64,000 nt of DNA. Source: an uncultured Planctomycetia bacterium (lineage in GTDB: Bacteria; Omnitrophota; Gorgyraeia; Duberdicusellales; Duberdicusellaceae). Under the pieces are notes generated by a model. The model saw only the letters and a list, made by a program, of their open reading frames with translations, ran no database searches and was not told where the DNA came from. This document shows positions 9,377 to 20,649 of this stretch, one piece after another (position 1 is the stretch's first letter; each line of letters begins with the position of its first letter). The stretch is from NCBI GenBank assembly GCA_964634935.1, contig CAZWJT010000002.1, positions 10,570 through 74,569 of the forward strand. The letters are read 5' to 3'. Made by a program: the position numbers and the translations under genes.

Positions 9377-9455
9377 GGTGGGTGTAGCTCAGTTTGGCTA
9401 GAGCACTTGACTGTGGCTCAAGATGTCGAGGGTTCAAATCCCTTCACCCACCCCA
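9377..9455 (+). tRNA. tRNA-His (anticodon GUG) with extra G-1 and encoded 3' CCA
   Basis: G(-1) precedes acceptor GTGGGTG/CACCCAC. Anticodon loop CTGTGGC. T-arm GAGGGTTCAAATCCCTT. Discriminator C followed by CCA in the DNA. Confidence 0.8.
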
Positions 9456-10388: not shown

Positions 10389-10417
10389 TTGACAAATATT
10401 TGTTAAAATGGTATTAT
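10389..10417 (+). promoter_or_regulatory. Sigma70-like promoter TTGACA-N17-TATTAT for the ATPase/TOPRIM operon, overlapped by the near-palindrome TTGACAAATATTTGTTAA
   Basis: The -35 is 10389..10394 and the -10 is 10412..10417. The -35 lies inside an imperfect 9-9 inverted repeat, which could be an operator. Confidence 0.45.
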
Positions 10418-10462
10418 TACATTGTCAATAACGCTCAAAATAAGTATTTCAGGAGGGATAAA

Positions 10463-11689
10463 ATGATTCATTCATTTACGTTCAAAAATTTTTGTTCCTT
10501 TGCAAATAATGCCACAATATTGTTTCAGGATATTCGCAAAGGAGTAGAAACTAAGAGTAATATGTTTTGCGACACCTCGTTAGGCGACCGTGTAAGCAAA
10601 GTTATGATCGTGGTTGGGCCTAACGCGTCTGGTAAGACAAGCGCCCTTAAGGCGTTGGCTTTTCTTAGTTGGTTTGTGCGAAATTCCTTTGTTGGGCTGG
10701 AAGGGGAAAAGGAGCCAATCCCTGTCGATAATTTCGCTTTCTCAGAGGATAAAGAAAGCGTGTCGGAATTCGAATTGGTTTTTGATCACAAAGATGTTGT
10801 TTATAAATATATCCTGCATTTATGCAAAACCCATGTCATAAAGGAAGAGCTATACCGCAAAGAAGATACCCAGCATTTTAATTATATATTCAAGAGAAAT
10901 TGGAACGCACAGGCGGGGAGTTCTGAGATTGTTCAGCGCATAAATTTAAAGACAGAAATTCTTAAAGAAATCTTGCGCAAGAACGTGTCTTTAATTGCCG
11001 CGTCAGTCGCGATAAAGAACGATTTTCTTACAGATATTGCCGGGTTCTGGGAGAAGATCATTAGCAACGTTAATCGCATGGGAAAATCATGGGACACTTC
11101 TTCGCTTGGCGAACGCGGCTTATTTGAAGCCACAGAGGCCTATAATAAAAATCAAAATCTTTTTGTTAAAGTTGTTCAGTTTTTGAAAGACATTGATCTT
11201 GGTTTAGAGGGAGTGTTGATCGAAGAGGGAGAAGCTCGAAATCCTAAAACCGGAGAAGCGAAGAAAATTTATTTGCCATATGGCGTGCATAAGGTTAAGG
11301 ACAAGCAATATAAATTACCGTTAGCTTTTGAATCCAGCGGCACAAAAAATATGTTTGTGCTTTTGCATTTTCTTTTGCCAGCTATTGAGCAGGGCGGGCT
11401 TGCGGTAATAGACGAGCTTGAGATCGATTTGCATCCTCACGCCGTCCCGCAAATAATCGAGTTGTTCGCTAACCCAGCCACCAACCCTAAAAATAGCCAA
11501 CTCCTTTTTACTTCACATTCCCTGGAGGTTCTTAACCATCTTGAGAAGGAACAAATTGTTCTGGTTGAGAAAAAACAGGAGTGTAAAAGTGAGCTTTATC
11601 GGCTTGATGAATTGAAAGGAATACGTCGCGACGATAACATCTACGCAAAATATATGGCCGGTGCTTATGGCGCGGTTCCAAACATATAA
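10463..11689 (+). CDS. AAA_21/AAA_15 (ABC/OLD-type) ATPase, AbiLi/RloA/AriA-like
   Basis: Walker A VVGPNASGKTSALKAL. C-terminal ESSGTKNMFVLLHFL ... AVIDELEIDLHP ... LLFTSHSLEVL signatures. The ORF track starts at TTG 10400, but ATG 10463 has a strong RBS (AGGAGGG). Confidence 0.75.
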   Translation: MIHSFTFKNFCSFANNATILFQDIRKGVETKSNMFCDTSLGDRVSKVMIVVGPNASGKTSALKALAFLSWFVRNSFVGLEGEKEPIPVDNFAFSEDKESVSEFELVFDHKDVVYKYILHLCKTHVIKEELYRKEDTQHFNYIFKRNWNAQAGSSEIVQRINLKTEILKEILRKNVSLIAASVAIKNDFLTDIAGFWEKIISNVNRMGKSWDTSSLGERGLFEATEAYNKNQNLFVKVVQFLKDIDLGLEGVLIEEGEARNPKTGEAKKIYLPYGVHKVKDKQYKLPLAFESSGTKNMFVLLHFLLPAIEQGGLAVIDELEIDLHPHAVPQIIELFANPATNPKNSQLLFTSHSLEVLNHLEKEQIVLVEKKQECKSELYRLDELKGIRRDDNIYAKYMAGAYGAVPNI

Positions 11690-11705
11690 ATAAGGGAGCC
11701 GCGAT

Positions 11706-12248
11706 ATGACGCCAAGACGAATAAAGCCGACCAGAAACACAAAAACAACTGTTCTCATTGTAGGCGAAGGCCCTACCGAGAAAGCATTTTTGCAATATCT
11801 CAAGGAGTTATACGTCGCGTGTGATTATGCCTGTGCCGTAAAAGTAGAATGCGGTTCTGGCGGCTCACCTCGCTGTGTAGTGCAAAAAGCCATACGTTTA
11901 CGAGGTAGCAGGGCTTATGATAAGTGTTACGTGCTTTTTGACGCGGATAGGCCGCTTGAAACTGATTATAAATTATCTGATCGCATGAATAAGCGGCCTC
12001 GCGTTGAAGTTCTCAAGGCCACGCCATGCATAGAGGGGTTATTTTTGGCAATATTGAAACACCCCGGATTTTCTCAAGGAAGCGCCGCGTCACATGATTG
12101 CAAACGGGATTTCCATGCCGGTTACATATCCGAAGACAAAAAGATGGACAAACGGTCATATGGGGGGAAGTTTCCAAAAACGATACTGGATAGCCAAAGA
12201 GCGCAGGTTGCAGAGTTAGACCTTATTTTAAAGGCAATGCAGGTTTAG
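11706..12248 (+). CDS. RloB/DUF4276-like TOPRIM protein (AbiLii/OLD-nuclease-like partner)
   Basis: N-terminal basic tail then VLIVGEGPTEKAFLQYL (TOPRIM Glu) and VLFDADRP (DxD). Sits 16 bp after the ATPase gene; RBS AAGGGAG. Confidence 0.6.
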   Translation: MTPRRIKPTRNTKTTVLIVGEGPTEKAFLQYLKELYVACDYACAVKVECGSGGSPRCVVQKAIRLRGSRAYDKCYVLFDADRPLETDYKLSDRMNKRPRVEVLKATPCIEGLFLAILKHPGFSQGSAASHDCKRDFHAGYISEDKKMDKRSYGGKFPKTILDSQRAQVAELDLILKAMQV

Positions 12249-12316: not shown

Positions 12317-12664
12317 ATGGGTGAAATAAAGGAACTTACAGAGAAAATAAAAGAATTCCGTGACGAGCGAGATTGGAAACAATTTCATAATCATAAGGAT
12401 ATGTCTCTCTCACTAATGCTTGAGGCAGCTGAAGTTTTAGAGCACTTTCAGTGGAAATCACAGAGCGAAGTCGAAAAACATGGAAATGCATGCAAAAATG
12501 AAATAGCTGAAGAGCTCGCTGATGTTGCTATGTACCTATTTGAGCTCGCAGATAATCTTGGTATTAATTTGTCCGATGCTATTGAGCATAAGCTGACAAA
12601 AAATGCTAAAAAGTACCCTGTAGAGAAAGCTAAAGGTAAACACACAAAATACGATAAATTATGA
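12317..12664 (+). CDS. MazG-like nucleoside triphosphate pyrophosphohydrolase (small all-alpha NTP-PPase)
   Basis: IKEFRDERDWKQFHNHKDMSLSLMLEAAEVLEHFQWK and EELADVAMYLFELA are typical of the MazG/dUTPase-like fold. RBS GGAGG. Its stop overlaps the next start (ATGA). Confidence 0.7.
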   Translation: MGEIKELTEKIKEFRDERDWKQFHNHKDMSLSLMLEAAEVLEHFQWKSQSEVEKHGNACKNEIAEELADVAMYLFELADNLGINLSDAIEHKLTKNAKKYPVEKAKGKHTKYDKL

Positions 12665-15075
12665 GGCTTTACTCGGGAACATCACAGCAATTCATTCAAG
12701 ATGCAATTCATAACCAAATCGCAGAGAAGTTAAAGAACGCATTTTTCGGATATTATCGTTACAATCCTTCCCCAGCGGAGATTAATTCTTGGCGCAACTC
12801 CCTTCGTTCGATTAGCCAAGTATTTCAGCATGCGGATCTGATGGATCATGGAGTTCTTCTTGAATACCAATTACCTTTAACTTCTCGCCGACTAGATTGC
12901 ATGATCTGTGGCCGTGATCAACAAAAAGCAGATAATGCTGTTATTGTGGAATTAAAACAATGGGATAGATGTGAAGAGGCGTATGGCGATAACGAAGTGC
13001 TCACATGGGTTGGAGGCGCAAAGCGAGAAGTATTACATCCTTCAGTCCAGGTTGGGCAATATCATCTTTACCTAGAAGATACGCACACAGCATTTAATGT
13101 TGATGATGACCCTGTTACCCTGAACGCTTGTACTTATTTACATAATTACAACTATTATTCCGACGACGTTATTTTTTCAGATAAATTCCAACTTCCTCTT
13201 AAACGGTATCCTCTATTTACTGCAGATGATGTTGAAAAGCTAACAGATTATTTGAGGGATAGACTTTTAACCGGAGACGGCCTAGATGTTTTACAAAGGA
13301 TCGAAGAAAGTAAATATCGTCCAAATAAAAAGCTCATGGATCACGTAGGTAACATAATAAAAAACAAAACAGAGTATATTCTGCTAGATGAGCAACTTAT
13401 CGTTTATGATGCTGTCTTGGGATGCGCAAAAAGAAGCTTCCATGATAAGCAAAAGTCTGTAATTGTTGTTAAAGGTGGCCCAGGCACTGGCAAGTCTGTT
13501 ATAGCAATTAACTTAATGGCTGACTTGCTATTGAAAGGTTACAACTCTCATTATGCCACTGGTTCAAAGGCTTTCACAGAGACATTGCGGAAGATCATCG
13601 GAACTCGCGGATCCGTACAGTTTAAATATTTTAACAGTTATGGTCAAGCAGAAGAGAATGCTGTAGATATTCTCATCGCGGATGAGGCCCATCGTATACG
13701 AGAGACAAGCAATAGTCGATTTACACCTCGCGCGAGCCGCTCCGAAATGACACAAATTGAAGAATTGCTTCGGGCGTCTAAGGTCGCGGTATTTTTTATT
13801 GATGATGACCAAGTAGTGCGTCCTAATGAAATAGGCTCTGTTGATTATATTAAGAGAATCGCAGACGATCGCAAAATCAAACTCCATGAATATGAATTAG
13901 AAGCTCAATTTCGTTGTAATGGATCTGATGCGTTTGTAAGTTGGATCAACAATACCTTAGGGATTAAAAGAACCGCCCATGTAATCTGGGATCAACATGA
14001 AGAATTTGATTTTAAGATATTTTCTAGTCCAATTGAACTTGAAAATGCCATACGTAATAATGTTGCACGAGGCTTTACTGGAAGAGTAACAGCTGGTTTT
14101 TGCTGGGATTGGTCGCTCCCGAATGAAGATGGTACGTTGAAAAATGATGTAATCATAGGAGATTATAAACGACCATGGGATGCAAAGCCGGAGGCTAAAC
14201 GCTTAGCTCCAGGTATTCCGAAAGCTTCCCTGTGGGCATATGATCCTAATGGTATTAATCAAGTTGGATGTGTGTATACTGCACAGGGTTTCGAGTTTGA
14301 TTATGTCGGAGTTATTTTTGGTGAAGATTTAGTATATGACTTTGATAAGCAAGAGTGGATCGGCAATTCGGCTAATTCCTCTGATAGCGTAGTTAAGCGG
14401 TCTAAGAACAAATTTGTGGATTTGGTAAAAAATACTTATAGAGTTTTATTAAGCCGAGGAATGAAGGGTTGTTACGTCTATTTTATGAATAAAGATACCG
14501 AGAGGTTTTTTAAATCACGAATTGAAGGTGATAATACACAAATAGATGAATCTTTAACCGTTTCTAGGCTTCTAGGTAGCGAGGTAGATTTTCTTGAACG
14601 TATTCTCCAAGACGTTGATAGCTCTTTGAAATACAAAGAATATTTACCAGTTTATACTTTGGCTGCGGCAGCCGGTGCATTCGGCGAAGGCATGGATGTT
14701 AAAGAAAAGGGTTGGATTAAGGTTAACATCGGTAAGGCTTTGAATAAAAAATTATTCGTTGCGAAAGTAATCGGTAAGTCTATGGAACCGTTAATTCCTG
14801 ATGGGAGCTATTGTGTGTTTAGTGCGAACGTTGTTGGCACGCGAGCGAATAAGATTGTTTTAGTTCAACACAGCAGCATTTCTGATCTTGATAGTGGCGG
14901 AAAATATACGGTGAAGAAATATACGAGTAAGAAAAAATACTCGTCAGATGACACTTGGGAACATGACGAAATAACTTTGTTGCCGCTAAATCCTGACTAC
15001 GCTCCCATCATAATACCGAATACCAATGAGGGCGAGTTTATGGTGATCGCAGAATTTATATCAGTATTAAAATAA
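12661..15075 (+). CDS. DUF2075-type nuclease/helicase: N-terminal PD-(D/E)xK motif, P-loop NTPase, C-terminal LexA/UmuD-type S24 autopeptidase domain
   Basis: RLDCMICG...AVIVELKQW matches D..ExK. Walker A VVKGGPGTGKSV and Walker B ILIADEAHRI. DUF2075 tail CVYTAQGFEFDYVGVIFGEDL. The C terminus has AAAAG (Ala671-Gly672) then 35 aa later VIGKSMEPLIPDGSYCVF (Ser707), TVKKY (Lys), LLPLNPDYAPIIIP, matching the S24 layout. Confidence 0.75.
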   Translation: MRLYSGTSQQFIQDAIHNQIAEKLKNAFFGYYRYNPSPAEINSWRNSLRSISQVFQHADLMDHGVLLEYQLPLTSRRLDCMICGRDQQKADNAVIVELKQWDRCEEAYGDNEVLTWVGGAKREVLHPSVQVGQYHLYLEDTHTAFNVDDDPVTLNACTYLHNYNYYSDDVIFSDKFQLPLKRYPLFTADDVEKLTDYLRDRLLTGDGLDVLQRIEESKYRPNKKLMDHVGNIIKNKTEYILLDEQLIVYDAVLGCAKRSFHDKQKSVIVVKGGPGTGKSVIAINLMADLLLKGYNSHYATGSKAFTETLRKIIGTRGSVQFKYFNSYGQAEENAVDILIADEAHRIRETSNSRFTPRASRSEMTQIEELLRASKVAVFFIDDDQVVRPNEIGSVDYIKRIADDRKIKLHEYELEAQFRCNGSDAFVSWINNTLGIKRTAHVIWDQHEEFDFKIFSSPIELENAIRNNVARGFTGRVTAGFCWDWSLPNEDGTLKNDVIIGDYKRPWDAKPEAKRLAPGIPKASLWAYDPNGINQVGCVYTAQGFEFDYVGVIFGEDLVYDFDKQEWIGNSANSSDSVVKRSKNKFVDLVKNTYRVLLSRGMKGCYVYFMNKDTERFFKSRIEGDNTQIDESLTVSRLLGSEVDFLERILQDVDSSLKYKEYLPVYTLAAAAGAFGEGMDVKEKGWIKVNIGKALNKKLFVAKVIGKSMEPLIPDGSYCVFSANVVGTRANKIVLVQHSSISDLDSGGKYTVKKYTSKKKYSSDDTWEHDEITLLPLNPDYAPIIIPNTNEGEFMVIAEFISVLK

Positions 15076-15085
15076 TAGGTTAGGC

Positions 15086-15790
15086 ATGATATTAAAACCC
15101 GGTGAAATAGTTTCTTATTTAACAATGTGCCAGCACGAAGGGGTAAACCTTCAGCGGGGCATGAATTTCCGGTTAAAGGGCGGGCTAAGTGTCATTTTAA
15201 TGAGCTTAAGAAAGAATGCCCCGTATGCTGATAGAGTCGAGGATGATGGTGGCGTTCTGATCTATGAAGGCCACGATGTTCCGAAATATCAGGGGTTAAA
15301 GCAAAATCCAAAACAAATTGATCAGCCAGGGCTTACTCCCTCAGGGGCATTAACCGAAAATGGCAAGTTTTTCAAAGCGGCCGAAGGATATAAGAAAAAT
15401 AATGGCATTCCAGAGCTCGTTAAAGTTTATGAGAAGATACGTAACGGCATTTGGACGTATTCTGGGATTTTTGAATTGATTGATGCATGGCAGGAAGCTG
15501 CTGGGAAGCGAAAGGTATTTAAATTCAAACTAAAAATTACCGATCGGTCAGAGGCCGATCGCGACCCTGCAAATAAGGACGACTTGGATCATACGCGCGT
15601 AATACCCACAGATGTTAAATTGGCGGTATGGGAGCGCGATAAAGGACGATGTGTTGTATGCAATTCGGCAAACAACTTGCACTTTGATCACATTATCCCA
15701 TTCTCAAAGGGCGGTACATCTTTAAAAGCAGAAAATATTCAATTGATGTGTGCAAGGCATAATCTAAATAAACGAGATAAATTAATTTAG
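15086..15790 (+). CDS. SRA(YDG)-like domain fused to an HNH endonuclease: putative type IV modification-dependent restriction enzyme
   Basis: C-terminal HNH: CVVCNSANNLHFDHIIPFSKGG...NIQLMCARHN. The N-terminal GGLSVILMS...YADRVEDDGGVLIYEGHD resembles the SRA motif S-V-L-SGG...Y-DD-D-G...YTG-GG. 10 bp after the DUF2075 gene. Confidence 0.55.
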   Translation: MILKPGEIVSYLTMCQHEGVNLQRGMNFRLKGGLSVILMSLRKNAPYADRVEDDGGVLIYEGHDVPKYQGLKQNPKQIDQPGLTPSGALTENGKFFKAAEGYKKNNGIPELVKVYEKIRNGIWTYSGIFELIDAWQEAAGKRKVFKFKLKITDRSEADRDPANKDDLDHTRVIPTDVKLAVWERDKGRCVVCNSANNLHFDHIIPFSKGGTSLKAENIQLMCARHNLNKRDKLI

Positions 15791-15970
15791 ATTCGATAAA
15801 CTTTTGATAAGGAAACGAATTAAATGGCATTGGTTTGTTGATCATTGGGTTTTGTTAGCTCAAAATTCGGGGAGCTTCACATTTTTTTGCTCCTGTGGCT
15901 CTAGACTGCGCGGTTTCTAATACCGCGAGGCCACCCCAGCTTAAAAATTTCTGCCAAATTTTTAAGCGTC

Positions 15971-16148
15971 CCAAAGCCATCCCGGGAAATATCCACAGGA
16001 AATTTCCCGGGTATTCAAACGGCGAGGGGCAGGATTACATATCGCTACTTCCAATGTCTTCCTGAGCATATCAATCAGATCTTCTGAATATCAAATGGCA
16101 GAGGGTTTTGTCTGGTAAAGGAAAACCTTTTATAATATAATGTTTTAT
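15971..16148. repeat. 178-bp direct repeat, copy 1 (identical to 18686..18863); contains a palindrome and a consensus promoter
   Basis: Base-by-base comparison of the two copies shows identity over 178 bp. Internal inverted repeat CCCGGGAAAT-N11-ATTTCCCGGG at 15981..16011. Confidence 0.9.
16108..16136 (+). promoter_or_regulatory. Sigma70 promoter TTGTCT-N17-TATAAT at the 3' end of repeat copy 1
   Basis: -35 16108..16113, 17-nt spacer, -10 TATAAT 16131..16136. Points toward the gene starting at 16323. Confidence 0.6.
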
Positions 16149-16322: not shown

Positions 16323-16820
16323 ATGACAGAATTGCTTCAAGCACAAGTTCGATCTATCGGCGAGCATTACGTTGTTGCTCGGCTTACGACGCTGGGGTTT
16401 ATCGTGGGCTTGGCGCCTGAGAATACAAGAGCTGTTGATATTATTGCGATGAGCGAGGATGGCAAAAGAAACCTCCAGATTCAGGTTAAAACGCGAACGG
16501 AAGGCCGTTCTGCCGATAAAGGCTGGATGATGAGTGAGAAACACGAATCCTTAGTGAATGACAATTTATATTATATTTTCGTTACTTTACCGGAGCAATG
16601 GACTGACCGCGATCAACCGTCCACTTTTATTATTCCATCAAAGAAAGTGGCCGCTATTGTTAAGCAATCGCATAAAGACTGGACATCCAGCCCCGGGCGT
16701 AAAGGTCAAAAGCGTAACGATACCAAAATGAGACGAATCAAGCCGATCTATTCAGATTCTCCATCAATTCCTGCTGACTGGATGGATGAATACCGGGATA
16801 ATTGGGAGATTTTGAAATGA
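16323..16820 (+). CDS. Small hypothetical protein with a PD-(D/E)xK-like motif arrangement
   Basis: GEHYVVARL ... VDIIAM ... LQIQVK resembles the E / D / (E/Q)xK restriction-endonuclease-fold core. No other match. Confidence 0.4.
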   Translation: MTELLQAQVRSIGEHYVVARLTTLGFIVGLAPENTRAVDIIAMSEDGKRNLQIQVKTRTEGRSADKGWMMSEKHESLVNDNLYYIFVTLPEQWTDRDQPSTFIIPSKKVAAIVKQSHKDWTSSPGRKGQKRNDTKMRRIKPIYSDSPSIPADWMDEYRDNWEILK

Positions 16821-17470
16821 CTTTAGATCGATATGTCGCATGGGCCTTGGCTAATATTAACATAACCCTTCCCGTTTCCCGCAGAGTTGAGGAAGATTGG
16901 TTATATAATTGGTCGAGGACGTTGGATGCGATTAACAGCGTGACTGGGATATTTGAGGTTACGTCGTTGATATTCTCACGGTCTGAGTTTCTTGGCGGTT
17001 TATATCTTGGAAAAACGGCGGATACAACAGCTGACGATTTTAAACTGTTCTGGGATAAGTTCTTCCCGGAGGAGTATAAGGATTTTCATAATATGAGCGG
17101 CCAAGGTAAAGGTTCAGACATCTTCAATGTATTCAGAAATAATATCCTTCACTCAGGGACAGCAACGGCGATTAAATCTGGTGCCGATGATATTATTGGC
17201 TGGTTGATGGGATACGGGGTAAATCCCGATGGCAAGGGCATATCTTTTAAGGATCGGGCGTTTCATATTGACTGCCAGAATCTAACTACCGAGTTCAAAG
17301 AGGCGCTGAAGAAATATATTTCTTACTTGAAAGATGATACGGATGATTTAAACGGACAGGGCATTCCAAGCGTACGCTGGAGAAAAGGATTTTGGTATAC
17401 CTTAAAGCCTGTTTATATGGATTCTGCTTCATGGGGCGCTTTAGGTCGAGATAATAAGATTTATTCTTAA
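16817..17470 (+). CDS. Hypothetical protein, translationally coupled (ATGA) to the upstream gene
   Basis: ATG 16817 overlaps stop 16818..16820. No recognisable motif. Confidence 0.4.
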   Translation: MTLDRYVAWALANINITLPVSRRVEEDWLYNWSRTLDAINSVTGIFEVTSLIFSRSEFLGGLYLGKTADTTADDFKLFWDKFFPEEYKDFHNMSGQGKGSDIFNVFRNNILHSGTATAIKSGADDIIGWLMGYGVNPDGKGISFKDRAFHIDCQNLTTEFKEALKKYISYLKDDTDDLNGQGIPSVRWRKGFWYTLKPVYMDSASWGALGRDNKIYS

Positions 17471-17485
17471 TGCGAGAGGTTAATT

Positions 17486-18436
17486 ATGGCGAAAATTATA
17501 TGCTTCACTGCAATATTATTGCTGAATACTATTTTAGCAAGCGCGCAGGATACCCCTTTGGAAAAACAACTGACATTGATATACAAGAATGCGGAAGATG
17601 CAACCACCAAAGGCGATATCGAGCAGTCAGATTTTTGGTTGGCCAGATACATGGGTTTAACAGCCACAGATGAAAACACAAACCGTGGCTACCCCGATTT
17701 AATCCCATTGTTTAAAAAACGAGAGGATTTAAAACCCACAGCATTTATCTCTGGAAAGTACGATGATAGTTTTATCGAATTCTACGCTCGCGGAACATGT
17801 GGCATGTGGGGCGCGCCCGATGAAGGTATTGATAGAGAAAAGCGAGAATTTATAATTCAGTCCTATTCAGATGGTCGCTATTTTGTCGAGATAACAGCTT
17901 CGCCTCGGCTTGAGAATTGGTCTATTTTAAAAGAGCCCGCAGTTGTAGCCGTTATCCCTCTCGGGAAAAACCCCATTATCCATTCAGGTAAACTTGATAA
18001 AAATGCGGTTGCTAAACGCTTCAAGAATATGCCCTTTGATATCGGAGAAAGTTTTATCCACTACGTCTGGCAACCGGAAATGCACGATTTAGATGGGGAT
18101 GGCATACCTGAAGTATGGATCCGCTATATTAAGGCTTGGGCCGATGGTTTTTCTCAGGAATTGGCTATATATAAAATTAAAGATGACAGTGATCTTGTCC
18201 TATTAAAGCAGTTCTCCGGTGAAGCCGAAGGCATTGCCAGACGCCTTGACGGGAATGGGGTCGAGATAGGCACCGGCTTTACTAATAAGAATGTTGGGCA
18301 TCTAGGTTTTGATCAGACACGCCTTGAAATATGGGCATACAGAGATGGCAAATTCATAAAGACTTCCGAAAGGAATGTTCCCCATATTCTCTGGAGTAAT
18401 GCATGGGAGAAGTATTATTTTAATAGTCAAAAATGA
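17486..18436 (+). CDS. Secreted hypothetical protein (signal peptide)
   Basis: MAKIICFTAILLLNTILASAQD signal peptide. RBS GAGAGG. Confidence 0.5.
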   Translation: MAKIICFTAILLLNTILASAQDTPLEKQLTLIYKNAEDATTKGDIEQSDFWLARYMGLTATDENTNRGYPDLIPLFKKREDLKPTAFISGKYDDSFIEFYARGTCGMWGAPDEGIDREKREFIIQSYSDGRYFVEITASPRLENWSILKEPAVVAVIPLGKNPIIHSGKLDKNAVAKRFKNMPFDIGESFIHYVWQPEMHDLDGDGIPEVWIRYIKAWADGFSQELAIYKIKDDSDLVLLKQFSGEAEGIARRLDGNGVEIGTGFTNKNVGHLGFDQTRLEIWAYRDGKFIKTSERNVPHILWSNAWEKYYFNSQK

Positions 18437-18463: not shown

Positions 18464-18506
18464 CAGGCTACAAGGCAGTTTCTAACCTGCTTAAGCCATC
18501 GACCCC
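18464..18506. repeat. 45-bp motif copy A (CAGGCTACAAGGCAGTTTCTAA core)
   Basis: A 22-nt perfect match plus a similar 20-nt extension relative to 20515..20557. Starts 28 bp after the stop of the secreted-protein gene. Confidence 0.7.
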
Positions 18507-18685
18507 AATGAAACTTACTTCTTTCTGTCTCGACAAAGCAGAAAGAAGTTTAGTTGAATTGTCCCCGAACAGCTTTCGGAAAATGTCAAAGAGATTTTCC
18601 GAATATGAGAGATGTTCGGGGTACAACACTGCATGCGGTGCAAAAAGCAGCGCAGGCCATCAGAAAAGGCCAAGGTTTAGTTACT

Positions 18686-18863
18686 CCAAAGCCATCCCGG
18701 GAAATATCCACAGGAAATTTCCCGGGTATTCAAACGGCGAGGGGCAGGATTACATATCGCTACTTCCAATGTCTTCCTGAGCATATCAATCAGATCTTCT
18801 GAATATCAAATGGCAGAGGGTTTTGTCTGGTAAAGGAAAACCTTTTATAATATAATGTTTTAT
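18686..18863. repeat. 178-bp direct repeat, copy 2
   Basis: Identical to 15971..16148. ORF-track ORFs 18508..18780 and 18554..18802 lie in it and are considered spurious. Confidence 0.9.
18823..18851 (+). promoter_or_regulatory. Sigma70 promoter TTGTCT-N17-TATAAT (repeat copy 2) driving gltA
   Basis: -10 18846..18851. gltA ATG 18935 with RBS AGAGAGGTGG. Confidence 0.6.
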
Positions 18864-18934: not shown

Positions 18935-20230
18935 ATGAATATTCCGGAATCAGGTAAGCCGCTCGATACGGCCGCAATAACAATTGGTGATAAGATCGTT
19001 TCCTGTCCTATTATCACAGGCGTTGAGAATGAGAAAGCCTTGGATATTTCTGGGCTTCGCAATAAAACAGGTTACGTGACGTATGACGAGGGATATGTCA
19101 ATACCGCCTCTTGCTTAAGCAGCATTACCTACATAGACGGGGAGAATGGAATATTGCGATACAGGGGGATTCCCGTGGAAGAACTTGCCGCAAAACGAAG
19201 CTTTATTGAAGTCGCTCATTTGCTTATTTTCGGGCACTTGCCGTCGGTTACAGAGAAAAGTACCTTTTCTAAACTTCTTACCAGTAACTGCATGATTCAT
19301 GACAATATGGTCAAGCTTTTTGATAACTTGCCCGGTTCAAGCCATCCCATGGCTACTTTGTCGGCAATGGTGGTGACGCTTTCTGCGTATTATCCTGAGT
19401 TGGTAAAGCCCGAGATGAACGCAGGGGAGATGAATAAAATTATTGCCGAACTTCTTGCCAAGATCAGGACCCTTGCGGCGTATTCATACAAAAAATCCAT
19501 CGGTGAACCTATCATTTACCCGAAACGCGAGTATAAATATGTCGAAAACTTTCTTCATATGATGTTTTCCACTCCTGTAGATGAATACCCCTTAGATCAA
19601 GAAGTGGTAGATGCCCTGGAAAAGATTCTTATCCTCCACGCTGATCATGAGCAGAATTGCAGTACTTCAACCGTGCGGTTGGTGGGAAGTTCTAAAGCCA
19701 ATCTTTTTGCGTCTATCTCTGCGGGTATTTGTGCCCTCTGGGGACCTTTACATGGCGGTGCGAATCAAGCCGTTATTGAGATGCTTGAGGCGATCGTTAG
19801 GGATAAGATAGATGTGAGGCATGTTATCGAGAAAGCAAAGGACAAAAATAATCCTTTCTTGCTTATGGGTTTTGGCCATCGAATTTATAAGAATTTTGAT
19901 CCCCGGGCGAGGATTATTAAGGAAATATGCGATAAAGTGCTCACGAAACTGGGTATCAATGATCCTTGTCTTGAGATTGCTAAAAAGATCGAGGAAGTAG
20001 CCCTGAAAGACGATTTCTTCATTCAACGCAAACTTTATCCTAACGTTGATTTTTACAGCGGCATAATTCTTCGCGCGATCGGTATCCCGACGAATATGTT
20101 TACCGTTATTTTTGCTATGGGGCGGCTTCCTGGATGGATCGCACATTGGAAGGAACAATGTGAGTCTCCCAATCAAAAGATTGGGCGACCCCGTCAAGTC
20201 TATATCGGAGCGCCACTGACGCATATATAA
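18935..20230 (+). CDS. gltA: Citrate synthase
   Basis: Canonical LILHADHEQNCSTSTVRLVGSS, GPLHGGANQAV, MGFGHRIYKNFDPRA motifs. Confidence 0.9.
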   Translation: MNIPESGKPLDTAAITIGDKIVSCPIITGVENEKALDISGLRNKTGYVTYDEGYVNTASCLSSITYIDGENGILRYRGIPVEELAAKRSFIEVAHLLIFGHLPSVTEKSTFSKLLTSNCMIHDNMVKLFDNLPGSSHPMATLSAMVVTLSAYYPELVKPEMNAGEMNKIIAELLAKIRTLAAYSYKKSIGEPIIYPKREYKYVENFLHMMFSTPVDEYPLDQEVVDALEKILILHADHEQNCSTSTVRLVGSSKANLFASISAGICALWGPLHGGANQAVIEMLEAIVRDKIDVRHVIEKAKDKNNPFLLMGFGHRIYKNFDPRARIIKEICDKVLTKLGINDPCLEIAKKIEEVALKDDFFIQRKLYPNVDFYSGIILRAIGIPTNMFTVIFAMGRLPGWIAHWKEQCESPNQKIGRPRQVYIGAPLTHI

Positions 20231-20514: not shown

Positions 20515-20557
20515 CAGGCTACAAGGCAGTTTCTAATCCGCTGAATCCGGCGATTCC
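20515..20557. repeat. 45-bp motif copy B (CAGGCTACAAGGCAGTTTCTAA core), with a partial upstream copy at 20463..20483
   Basis: See copy A. Located 284 bp after the gltA stop. Confidence 0.7.
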
Positions 20558-20649
20558 ACAGTTTGACTGCGTACGACCCTTGAATTTTGCATGATAATGT
20601 TTCTGACTGATGTTTTTATTGACTTTAAGAATATTTTTGCTATTATAAT

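What the first reader, a model, noticed from the sequence alone, without database searches (positions are those of the whole stretch)
15086..15790. SRA-like + HNH protein: probable modification-dependent (type IV) restriction endonuclease, last gene of the MazG/DUF2075 operon
The C-terminal HNH motif (CxxC...HFDHIIPFSKGG...CARHN) is unambiguous. The N-terminal 150 aa show the SAD/SRA pattern (GGLSVILMS ... YADRVEDDGGVLIYEGHD, compared with S-V-L-SGG...Y-DD-D-G...YTG-GG), the 5mC/5hmC flipping domain of ScoMcrA/TagI-type enzymes. It starts 10 bp after the DUF2075 gene, which suggests co-transcription: a modified-DNA-sensing nuclease combined with a helicase/nuclease and an NTP pyrophosphohydrolase.
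Basis: partly seen in the sequence, partly recalled or inferred. Interest (0 to 1): 0.55.

Follow-up and report, generated by a model that had tools for sequence, protein, structure and literature searches.

The report
Methylcytosine-sensing SRA-HNH restriction nuclease gene
This gene encodes a small two-domain enzyme that most likely recognises chemically modified cytosine in foreign DNA and cuts that DNA; the enzyme type is known, but it recurs next to a nucleotide-cleaning enzyme and a helicase-nuclease, which may form an undescribed three-gene anti-phage unit.

Summary
The ORF at 15086..15790 (+, 234 aa) is real, and the quoted motifs are present. It starts 10 nt after the DUF2075 gene.

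**Domains.** The C-terminus is an HNH nuclease above the Pfam threshold, with D201-H202, N217, N226 and a CCCH zinc finger. The N-terminal 150 aa form an SRA fold:
- Pfam SAD_SRA is sub-threshold (E 1.3e-4).
- A family profile hits the SUVH5 SRA domain (E 2.8e-4).
- The SUVH5 5mC-pocket residues align to Y47, D49 and Y60, and its thumb Gln to Q23.

No C5 methyltransferase lies nearby. The protein is therefore a divergent, compact SRA-HNH type IV (modification-dependent) endonuclease. Its family is large (at least 557 species) and I found no characterised member.

**Context.** A 94% orthologue stands alone, so the enzyme is probably autonomous. MazG-like + DUF2075 is a conserved pair. An SRA-HNH gene, or a VcaM4I-like HNH gene, lies within 3 kb in 15 of 84 sampled DUF2075 loci. 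It sits directly downstream mainly of DUF2075 forms with a C-terminal S24 (LexA-like) domain. The MazG-like protein is homologous to DCTPP1, which hydrolyses 5-methyl-dCTP. Functional coupling is plausible but unproven.

The parts
15086..15790 (+). SRA-HNH gene (234 aa plus stop), a putative type IV modification-dependent endonuclease
   Evidence: ORF; homologues; Pfam; fold searches
15086..15538 (+). SRA (SAD/SRA, PUA-superfamily) domain, residues 1-151. Thumb Q23 is at 15152-15154. Pocket residues are Y47 (15224-15226), D49 (15230-15232) and Y60 (15263-15265).
15539..15601 (+). Variable, probably flexible interdomain linker, residues 152-172
   Evidence: pLDDT below 50 for residues 160-171. 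Length and sequence vary in alignments A1 and A2.
15602..15787 (+). HNH (beta-beta-alpha-Me) nuclease domain, residues 173-234. Zinc ligands are C189, C192, C222 and H225. Active-site residues are D201-H202, N217 and N226 (Cas9/IscB/endonuclease VII type).
   Evidence: Pfam HNH 28.6 bits and HNH_5 27.6 bits. NCBIfam IscB and Cas9d HNH regions. PDB IscB, Gme HNH and Cas9. Residue numbering checked.
15076..15085 (+). 10-nt spacer between the DUF2075 stop codon and the SRA-HNH start codon (TAGGTTAGGC). No promoter-like or terminator-like site was called here.
   Evidence: Sequence; promoter/terminator scan
12661..15075 (+). Upstream partner: an Nhi-like protein of 804 aa. It has an N-terminal PD-(D/E)xK-like motif (D79, E97, K99), a DUF2075/SLFN-g3 helicase (265-608) and a C-terminal LexA/UmuD-like S24 domain (664-798; S707, K752).
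   Evidence: Pfam PF09848 E 1.9e-88 and PF00717 E 1.1e-9. PADLOC PDC-S41, AbiO and Nhi. Invariant residues in A4 and A5.
12317..12664 (+). Upstream partner: a MazG-like all-alpha NTP pyrophosphohydrolase of 115 aa, homologous to dCTP pyrophosphatase 1 (DCTPP1/RS21-C6). It overlaps the DUF2075 start by 4 nt.
   Evidence: Pfam PF12643 E 8.6e-21. PDB 4qgp E 1.9e-20, and 6sqw/2a3q (DCTPP1/RS21-C6) E 3.5e-17.

Best explanation
The ORF encodes a compact SRA-HNH modification-dependent (type IV) restriction endonuclease.

Inferred mechanism, by analogy with SUVH5, UHRF1 and TagI: the N-terminal SRA domain scans duplex DNA and flips a 5-substituted cytosine (5mC and/or 5hmC) out of the helix. The flipped base stacks between Y47 and Y60, and its Watson-Crick edge is read by D49. 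Q23 fills the gap opposite the orphan guanine. A flexible linker of about 20 residues lets the C-terminal HNH domain nick or cut nearby DNA. That domain has D201 and N226 as metal ligands, H202 as general base, and a CCCH structural zinc site. It probably acts as an HNH-mediated dimer. The host needs no protective methyltransferase, because its own DNA should lack the mark.

The enzyme is probably self-sufficient, since a 94% orthologue stands alone. In this genome it has been recruited as the third gene of a conserved MazG-like/DUF2075 module, and I think it more likely than not that the three cooperate against phages with modified cytosine. In that model the DCTPP1-like MazG hydrolyses (modified) dCTP. 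This would starve the phage, or keep 5-modified dC out of host DNA, where it would make the chromosome a target. The SRA-HNH makes the first breaks in marked DNA. The Nhi-like nuclease-helicase then processes the broken DNA, with its LexA-like S24 domain possibly gating activity in response to RecA filaments.

Shown here: the domain identities, the conserved residues and the gene order. Inferred: substrate specificity, dimerisation, and all cooperation between the three proteins.
For: **SRA domain**
- Pfam SAD_SRA E 1.3e-4 over nearly the whole profile.
- Many homologues carry a precomputed PF02182 hit.
- The domain profile hits SUVH5 at E 2.8e-4, with Q392/Y416/D418/Y428 aligned to Q23/Y47/D49/Y60.
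- Foldseek probability 1.00, E 2.4e-6, with only SRA proteins and ScoMcrA at the top.
- The pocket description matches TagI Y55/Y67/D58 (PMC6212794) and the thumb Gln of Sco5333/SUVH5 (PMC4333417).

**HNH domain**
- Pfam score above the gathering threshold.
- IscB, Cas9 and Gme HNH hits.
- Catalytic residues are intact.

**No methyltransferase**
- No C5-MTase motif pair in the 64-kb window.
- None within 6 kb in 80 family loci.
- This agrees with the MDRE neighbourhood rule of PMC6765204.

**Autonomy**
- L005, a 94% orthologue, lies between a sugar kinase gene and a HigBA-like pair.

**Coupling**
- The trio is conserved in L001/L006, L007, L026 and L059 (Omnitrophota), where DUF2075 is only 42-67% identical to this one.
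- MazG-like is immediately upstream of DUF2075 in most of the 84 DUF2075 loci.
- SRA-HNH is directly downstream (gaps 2 to 41 nt) in L085/L086 (50% identical), L092, L152 and L162. All of these are S24-bearing forms, of two different S24 subtypes.
- SRA-HNH is also nearby in L108, L123 and L136.
- A second, unrelated-sensor family with a VcaM4I-like HNH occupies the same neighbourhood in L096, L101, L114, L128, L133, L147, L159 and L169/L170.
Against: - There is no biochemical or genetic test of any kind.
- The window protein's SAD_SRA score is below Pfam's gathering threshold.
- The AF2 model is of only moderate confidence (mean pLDDT 72). Its pocket geometry could not be inspected.
- The loop between Y47 and Y60 is one residue longer than in SUVH5, so the role of D49 rests on the HMM alignment alone.
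- Q23 is R, K or E in 7 of 32 divergent members.
- Sequence profiles do not retrieve TagI or ScoA3IV-type proteins. Specificity therefore cannot be transferred from them with confidence.
- Most SRA-HNH loci lack DUF2075 (76 of 80). Most DUF2075 loci lack an SRA-HNH or a 310-aa VcaM4I-like HNH (X-HNH_2) gene (69 of 84).
- In some loci the nuclease gene lies upstream or about 0.8 kb away. This fits defence-island clustering as well as it fits a system.
- The Omnitrophota loci were ascertained through the SRA-HNH gene itself, which biases that sample.
- Whether the host DNA lacks 5mC is unknown.
Confidence: 0.72

Rival explanations
1. The protein is an SRA-HNH type IV enzyme, but its position after MazG/DUF2075 is only defence-island clustering. 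The three genes act independently, and any read-through transcription has no functional meaning.
For: The 94% orthologue in L005 is solitary. 26 of 80 family loci instead have a small XRE HTH gene upstream, and others have unrelated neighbours. Only 8 of 84 DUF2075 loci have an SRA-HNH within 3 kb, sometimes upstream or 0.8 kb away. The window region is itself a defence island, with AbiLi/AbiLii immediately upstream.
Against: Same-strand spacing of -4 to +41 nt is kept in at least nine loci although DUF2075 has diverged to 42-67% identity. The direct-downstream position is seen only with S24-bearing DUF2075 forms (5 of about 17, against 0 of about 45 short forms). A second HNH family takes the same place. 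The family occurs in about 0.3% of species genomes, so 8 of 84 is far above random expectation. The DCTPP1-like MazG and the 5mC reader share a modified-cytosine theme.
Confidence: 0.35
2. The SRA-like domain reads something other than 5mC/5hmC: another modified or damaged base, glucosylated 5hmC, or a hypermodified pyrimidine. The enzyme would then be modification-dependent but with a different target. Alternatively the domain could be a non-specific DNA clamp.
For: The subfamily is only 15-22% identical to characterised SRA domains. The Y47-Y60 loop is one residue longer than in SUVH5. H63 and D64 (EGHD) replace the T-G-x-G-G motif of canonical SRA domains. SRA-like folds in PvuRts1I and AbaSI prefer 5hmC and glucosyl-5hmC (PMC4333417).
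Confidence: 0.12
3. It is the toxin of a toxin-antitoxin-like or controller-regulated module, or a selfish HNH homing-type nuclease. Its role would be addiction or mobility rather than restriction of modified DNA.
For: In Bacteroidota the gene is preceded by an overlapping 73-aa XRE HTH gene, as in C-protein or antitoxin arrangements. Some family members are fused to a PemK/MazF-like or a HIT domain. L005 is adjacent to a HigBA-like pair.
Against: No HTH partner exists in the window. The SRA domain with an intact base pocket has no role in homing or toxin models. No intein, intron or mobile-element context was seen. No full-length homologue occurs in the phage or plasmid collections.
Confidence: 0.05

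Closest known systems
SRA-HNH type IV restriction endonucleases: ScoA3IV (Sco5333), TbiR51I (Tbis1), TagI (PDB 6GHS), MsiJI, VcaCI
   Different: This protein is much shorter: 234 aa against 285-311 aa for the TagI chains. Structural alignment gives only about 15% identity, and neither single-sequence nor profile search finds TagI. The zinc site is CCCH, not CCCC (Sco5333) or CCCD (TagI, Tbis1). The taxa differ: Omnitrophota, Bacteroidota, Chloroflexota, Acidobacteriota and others, against mostly Actinobacteria and Proteobacteria. I found no characterised member of this subfamily. Here the gene is embedded in a MazG/DUF2075 operon.
Plant SUVH5 / SUVH6 SRA domains (PDB 3Q0B, 6A5K)
   Different: They are eukaryotic chromatin readers fused to SET methyltransferase domains, not to nucleases. 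The loop before the second Tyr is one residue shorter.
ScoMcrA (SBD-SRA-HNH, PDB 5ZMM)
   Same: It has SRA plus HNH in the same order and is a type IV enzyme. Foldseek aligns both domains.
   Different: ScoMcrA has an extra N-terminal sulfur-binding domain and is phosphorothioate-dependent. It is more than twice as long.
VcaM4I-type EVE-HNH modification-dependent endonucleases (PDB 6YEX)
   Same: The logic is analogous: a PUA-superfamily reader plus an HNH domain. A 310-aa family with a VcaM4I-like HNH occupies the same slot next to MazG/DUF2075 in other genomes.
   Different: The reader domain differs (EVE rather than SRA) and the HNH subtype differs (HNH_2, PF13391). This family is not present in the window.
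NTPase-coupled type IV systems (McrBC, SauUSI, GmrSD), and the McaZI-DUF2075 adjacency noted by Lutz et al. 2019
   Same: If the trio is a unit, it combines a modified-base reader, a nuclease and an NTP-driven motor, as these systems do. An MDRE next to a DUF2075 NTPase was already noted for the McaZI group (PMC6765204).
   Different: The motor here is an Nhi-like SF1/Schlafen-type helicase-nuclease with an S24 domain, not a McrB GTPase. A DCTPP1-like pyrophosphatase is an additional component. No experimental link exists.

Membership tests
SRA-HNH type IV modification-dependent endonucleases (ScoA3IV/TagI architecture) | N-terminal domain with the SRA (SAD/SRA) fold | tested here: met
SRA-HNH type IV modification-dependent endonucleases (ScoA3IV/TagI architecture) | Flipped-base pocket with two aromatic walls and a carboxylate, plus a thumb residue that fills the gap | tested here: met
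   The HMM alignment puts Y47, D49, Y60 and Q23 on SUVH5 Y416, D418, Y428 and Q392. All four are invariant in 30 close homologues. This rests on alignment; the 3D geometry was not inspected.
SRA-HNH type IV modification-dependent endonucleases (ScoA3IV/TagI architecture) | C-terminal HNH (beta-beta-alpha-Me) nuclease with intact catalytic residues and a structural zinc site | tested here: met
   PF01844 scores 28.6 bits against a cut-off of 21.4. D201-H202, N217 and N226, and C189/C192/C222/H225, are all present.
SRA-HNH type IV modification-dependent endonucleases (ScoA3IV/TagI architecture) | No cognate DNA C5-methyltransferase next to the gene | tested here: met
   A motif scan (PCQxFS plus ENV) finds none in the 64-kb window and none within 6 kb in 80 family loci. 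The test is a crude regular expression.
SRA-HNH type IV modification-dependent endonucleases (ScoA3IV/TagI architecture) | Detectable sequence homology to the characterised clade (ScoA3IV, TbiR51I, TagI) | tested here: not met
   Neither phmmer nor two family profiles retrieve TagI (6GHS) from the PDB at E <= 10. Structural alignment gives 15% identity. The architecture is the same but the subfamily is separate.
SRA-HNH type IV modification-dependent endonucleases (ScoA3IV/TagI architecture) | Preferential binding and cleavage of 5mC/5hmC DNA, and toxicity in Dcm+ hosts | not testable with these tools
   This needs biochemistry and genetics.
SRA-HNH type IV modification-dependent endonucleases (ScoA3IV/TagI architecture) | Dimerisation through the HNH domains | not tested
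   Only a monomer was modelled.
Pfam SAD_SRA (PF02182) | Score at or above the curated gathering threshold (30.7 bits) | tested here: not met
   The window protein scores 22.2 bits, E 1.3e-4. Many homologues have precomputed PF02182 hits, some unmarked (E <= 1e-5), for example P0108.
Nhi / Nhi-like single-protein defence (for the upstream DUF2075 gene) | N-terminal nuclease followed by a DUF2075 (PF09848) helicase | tested here: inconclusive
   PF09848 E 1.9e-88. PADLOC Nhi E 1e-13, AbiO 4.8e-14 and PDC-S41 2.3e-17. A PD-(D/E)xK-like D79...E97-x-K99 is invariant in A4, but no nuclease profile matched. The extra S24 domain is not part of Nhi.
DCTPP1 / RS21-C6-type MazG-like dCTP pyrophosphatases (for the first gene) | All-alpha MazG-like fold with sequence homology to DCTPP1 | tested here: met
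   PF12643 E 8.6e-21. PDB 6sqw/2a3q E 3.5e-17 and 7mu5 E 6.4e-14. Substrate preference was not tested.
Controller- or antitoxin-regulated nuclease (HTH plus nuclease pair) | Small HTH gene immediately upstream of the nuclease gene | tested here: not met
   An HTH gene is present in 26 of 80 family loci. It is absent in the window, where DUF2075 ends 10 nt upstream.

The most novel reading that the evidence does not exclude
MazG(DCTPP1-like) + Nhi-like DUF2075 helicase-nuclease carrying a LexA-like S24 domain + an interchangeable PUA-superfamily-HNH reader-nuclease (SRA-HNH here, a VcaM4I-like HNH protein elsewhere) is a previously undescribed multi-gene defence system aimed at phages with modified cytosine. 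In it, nucleotide-pool cleansing, recognition of marked DNA and damage-gated processive degradation would be coupled.
Probability: 0.3. Interest if true: 0.7.

Novelty: new member of a known kind. Interest (0 to 1): 0.42.

Why it matters
Type IV enzymes are the main bacterial answer to phages that hide their DNA behind modified bases. They are also reagents for epigenomic mapping. This subfamily is small (about 230 aa), strongly conserved (about 60% identity across phyla) and found in at least 557 species, yet I found no characterised member. One characterised representative would therefore annotate thousands of 'HNH endonuclease / hypothetical' genes, and might give a compact 5mC/5hmC-directed nuclease.

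The recurring link with a DCTPP1-like pyrophosphatase and an S24-bearing Nhi-like helicase-nuclease would matter more if it is functional. It would connect three layers of defence:
- control of the modified-dNTP pool,
- restriction that reads DNA marks,
- DNA degradation gated by the SOS response.

It would also give a testable role to the very common MazG-DUF2075 gene pair.

Tried and rejected
**Searches and models that gave nothing useful**
- A single-sequence phmmer search against the PDB gave only weak HNH (IscB) hits and a spurious glycosidase hit. It was of no use for the N-terminal domain.
- The full-length profile A1 against the PDB reached only the last beta-strands of the SUVH9 SRA domain. 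A domain-only profile of divergent members was needed.
- PADLOC recognises the protein only through generic HNH models (REase_II, PtuB). NCBIfam recognises only the IscB and Cas9d HNH regions.
- Looking up the exact DUF2075 protein (P0271) to recover the source contig gave no record.

**Literature searches**
- DUF2075+MazG returned nothing, and MazG+Nhi returned nothing relevant.
- Nhi-like+S24 returned only Millman et al. 2022, and type IV+MazG returned nothing relevant.

**Other collections**
- No full-length homologue occurs in the phage or plasmid collections.

**Readings rejected**
- A homing endonuclease.
- An inactive HNH. Some relatives have lost the catalytic residues, but this protein has not.

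Full report
**Observation**

The window carries a 234-codon ORF at 15086..15790 on the + strand. It starts 10 nt after the stop of an 804-codon DUF2075 ORF (12661..15075). That ORF overlaps a 115-codon MazG-like ORF (12317..12664) by 4 nt.

The gene is real. At least 7870 database proteins match at E <= 1e-3. The best match is 93% identical, and almost all matches are 229-237 aa long. The exact sequence is on record from a 266,689-nt contig. Its cluster-mates and closest relatives are named as Candidatus Omnitrophota. Public names are only 'HNH endonuclease' or 'hypothetical protein'.

**Domain identity: HNH**

Pfam gives HNH (PF01844, 28.6 bits, cut-off 21.4) and HNH_5 for residues 189-232. 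The motif is C189-x2-C192 ... D201-H202 ... N217 ... C222-x2-H225-N226. This is the Cas9/IscB/endonuclease VII type of active site, with Asp and Asn as metal ligands, His as general base, and a CCCH zinc site. It is consistent with the IscB, Cas9d, Gme-HNH and Cas9 hits. It also matches the CCCH variant that Han et al. mention for another SRA-HNH protein (PMC4333417).

**Domain identity: SRA**

Pfam SAD_SRA is sub-threshold for this protein (22.2 bits against 30.7, E 1.3e-4), but the match spans profile positions 29-143 of 148. I tested the call in three further ways.
- *Domain profile.* A profile of the N-terminal domain, built from 32 members down to 38% identity (A3), hits the SUVH5 SRA domain in the PDB at E 2.8e-4 and SUVH6 at 0.02, over the whole domain.
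- *Aligned residues.* In that alignment SUVH5 Q392 (the thumb residue that replaces the flipped base) falls on Q23. The 5mC pocket residues Y416, D418 and Y428 fall on Y47, D49 and Y60. All four are invariant in 30 close homologues, and Y60 is invariant in all 32 divergent ones.

**What kind of enzyme**

The architecture is N-terminal SRA, a variable linker of about 20 residues (pLDDT below 50), then a C-terminal HNH. This is the architecture of the characterised SRA-HNH type IV enzymes ScoA3IV, TbiR51I, TagI, MsiJI and VcaCI. Those enzymes bind and cut 5mC/5hmC DNA and are toxic in Dcm+ hosts (PMC4333417, PMC6212794, PMC6765204).

As expected for a modification-dependent enzyme, no C5-methyltransferase motif pair occurs in the window. 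None occurs within 6 kb in 80 family loci either.

The protein is not a close relative of the characterised clade. Sequence searches, including profile searches, do not find TagI, and structural identity is about 15%. The protein is also 50-75 residues shorter.

The subfamily is compact and tightly conserved. There are 882 cluster representatives at 50% identity. At least 557 of 185,579 species genomes carry it, across Omnitrophota, Bacteroidota, Chloroflexota, Acidobacteriota, Nitrospirota, Desulfobacterota and a Bathyarchaeia MAG, at about 60% identity. No full-length copy is in the phage or plasmid collections.

**Context of the SRA-HNH family**

The best 80 genome loci fall into these groups:
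- 26 loci, largely Bacteroidota (Chitinophagaceae and relatives), have an overlapping 73-aa XRE-type HTH gene directly upstream.
- 4 loci, all Omnitrophota (L006, L007, L026, L059), have DUF2075 directly upstream with MazG before it.
- The rest have unrelated neighbours.

The closest orthologue (L005, 94% identical, Omnitrophica WOR_2 GWF2_43_52) is solitary. It lies after a sugar kinase gene and before a HigBA-like pair. The gene is therefore a self-contained cassette.

**Context of the DUF2075 family**

The window's DUF2075 protein has three parts:
- a PD-(D/E)xK-like motif (D79, E97, K99, invariant in A4);
- an SLFN-g3/DUF2075 helicase (E 1.9e-88);
- a C-terminal S24 LexA/UmuD-like domain (E 1.1e-9), with the GxSM serine S707 and K752 invariant.

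It also matches the PADLOC models PDC-S41, AbiO and Nhi.

I examined 84 loci ascertained through DUF2075: 80 metagenome contigs plus 4 look-ups.
- A MazG-like gene lies immediately upstream, with gaps of -4 to +4 nt, in most of them. MazG-DUF2075 is the conserved core.
- An SRA-HNH family member lies directly downstream (gaps 2-41 nt) in L085/L086 (50% identical to ours, hhalign E 1e-75), L092, L152 and L162.
- All five of those are long forms with a C-terminal S24 domain. L152 and L162 carry a different, more LexA-like S24 subtype.
- That makes 5 of about 17 long forms with enough downstream sequence, against 0 of about 45 short forms.
- SRA-HNH is also within 3 kb in L108, L123 and L136.

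A second family also neighbours this module. It is about 310 aa long, with a C-terminal HNH_2 domain homologous to the EVE-HNH enzyme VcaM4I (profile E 1e-8, same length and register).
- It lies directly after MazG-DUF2075-S24 in L096, L101 and L169/L170.
- It lies next to short forms in L114, L128, L133, L147 and L159.

In total, 15 of 84 DUF2075 loci carry one of these two reader-HNH families within 3 kb. By comparison, the SRA-HNH family occurs in about 0.3% of species genomes.

Lutz et al. had already noted that another MDRE group (McaZI) sits next to DUF2075 NTPases, and they suggested testing them together (PMC6765204). I found no paper describing a MazG-DUF2075-SRA-HNH unit.

**The MazG-like gene**

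It is a clear homologue of mammalian dCTP pyrophosphatase 1 / RS21-C6 (E 3.5e-17). [quoted passage not shown] This gives the operon a common theme of 5-substituted cytosine. The substrate of the bacterial protein is not known.

**Most likely mechanism**

*Shown:* an SRA fold with a conserved 5mC-type pocket, an intact HNH domain, no nearby methyltransferase, and conserved gene order.

*Inferred:*
- The enzyme flips 5mC/5hmC into the Y47/Y60/D49 pocket, with Q23 filling the gap, and the tethered HNH nicks or cuts nearby.
- It probably acts as a dimer, as TagI does.
- The enzyme can work alone.
- In the operon, the DCTPP1-like enzyme may destroy modified dCTP, starving the phage or protecting host DNA from acquiring the mark.
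- The Nhi-like helicase-nuclease may process DNA broken by the HNH.
- The S24 domain may act as a RecA-responsive gate.

The S24 idea is speculative. The LexA-like Ala-Gly site (AAAAG, residues 666-670) is not conserved in all homologues.

**Rivals**
- Pure defence-island co-location without cooperation (0.35).
- A different ligand for the SRA pocket (0.12).
- A toxin or selfish-nuclease role (0.05).

**Verdict**

The gene is a new, divergent member of the known SRA-HNH type IV endonuclease kind, which by itself is ordinary. The added value is the recurrent, tightly spaced association of reader-HNH nucleases with the MazG-DUF2075(S24) module. That association is worth an experiment but is not yet evidence of a system.

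Noticed in passing
window 15971-16148 and 18686-18863: A perfect 178-nt direct repeat (100% identity, spacing 2715 nt) brackets three ORFs with no Pfam or PADLOC match: 16323-16820, 16802-17470 and 17486-18436. The second copy lies just upstream of citrate synthase (18935-20230) and contains a promoter-like site. This looks like a cassette insertion with a long duplication, or an assembly artefact.
   Followed up: partly
window 9378-9455 and 10400-12248: tRNA-His borders the region. An AbiLi (AAA_21 ATPase, PADLOC E 1e-76) / AbiLii (RloB-like) pair follows, immediately upstream of the MazG gene. The finding therefore sits in a defence island between tRNA-His and gltA. No integrase was seen.
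   Followed up: partly
window 12661-15075 (residues 664-798 of the DUF2075 protein): A LexA/UmuD-type S24 peptidase domain with a conserved Ser707/Lys752 dyad is fused to the C-terminus of an Nhi-like nuclease-helicase. The fusion is widespread: nearly all of the top 120 homologues are about 800 aa long with this domain. A second, more LexA-like S24 subtype occurs in L152 and L162. I found no paper describing this fusion. It suggests SOS/RecA-gated activation.
   Followed up: partly
window 12317-12664: [quoted passage not shown] The MazG-like gene is the near-constant upstream partner of DUF2075 genes, with a 4-nt overlap or gaps of 1-4 nt, in the metagenome sample.
   Followed up: partly
L096 5539-6462; L101 3126-4058; L169 5001-5933; L114 1082-2008; L128 808-1740: A large family of about 310 aa, annotated 'putative restriction endonuclease', has a VcaM4I-like HNH_2 C-terminus and an unassigned, weakly PUA-like N-terminus. 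It repeatedly neighbours MazG-DUF2075 modules.
   Followed up: partly
alignment A2 (P0134, P0136, P0138, P0141, P0169, P0182, P0210; P0137, P0225): Some members of the SRA-HNH subfamily have lost the D-H catalytic pair while keeping the SRA domain. These may be sensor-only proteins. Others carry N-terminal HIT or PemK/MazF-like domains.
   Followed up: no
L002 7780-8001, L003 7783-8004 and 24 other loci: In 26 loci, largely Bacteroidota, a conserved 73-aa XRE-family HTH gene overlaps or abuts the start of the SRA-HNH gene (4-nt overlap in some loci). This resembles the controller proteins of restriction systems. L002 also has an SBD-HNH (ScoMcrA-type) gene next to it.
   Followed up: partly
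L017 7064-7522 and two other loci: An orphan Vsr (T:G mismatch endonuclease) gene lies about 360 nt downstream of the SRA-HNH gene in three loci. No C5-methyltransferase was detected within 6 kb.
   Followed up: no
window 18464-18507 and 20515-20558: A 44-nt repeat (82% identity) flanks the citrate synthase gene. A similar GTTTCTAA-loop hairpin occurs at about 15900-15925. This may be a REP-like intergenic element.
   Followed up: no
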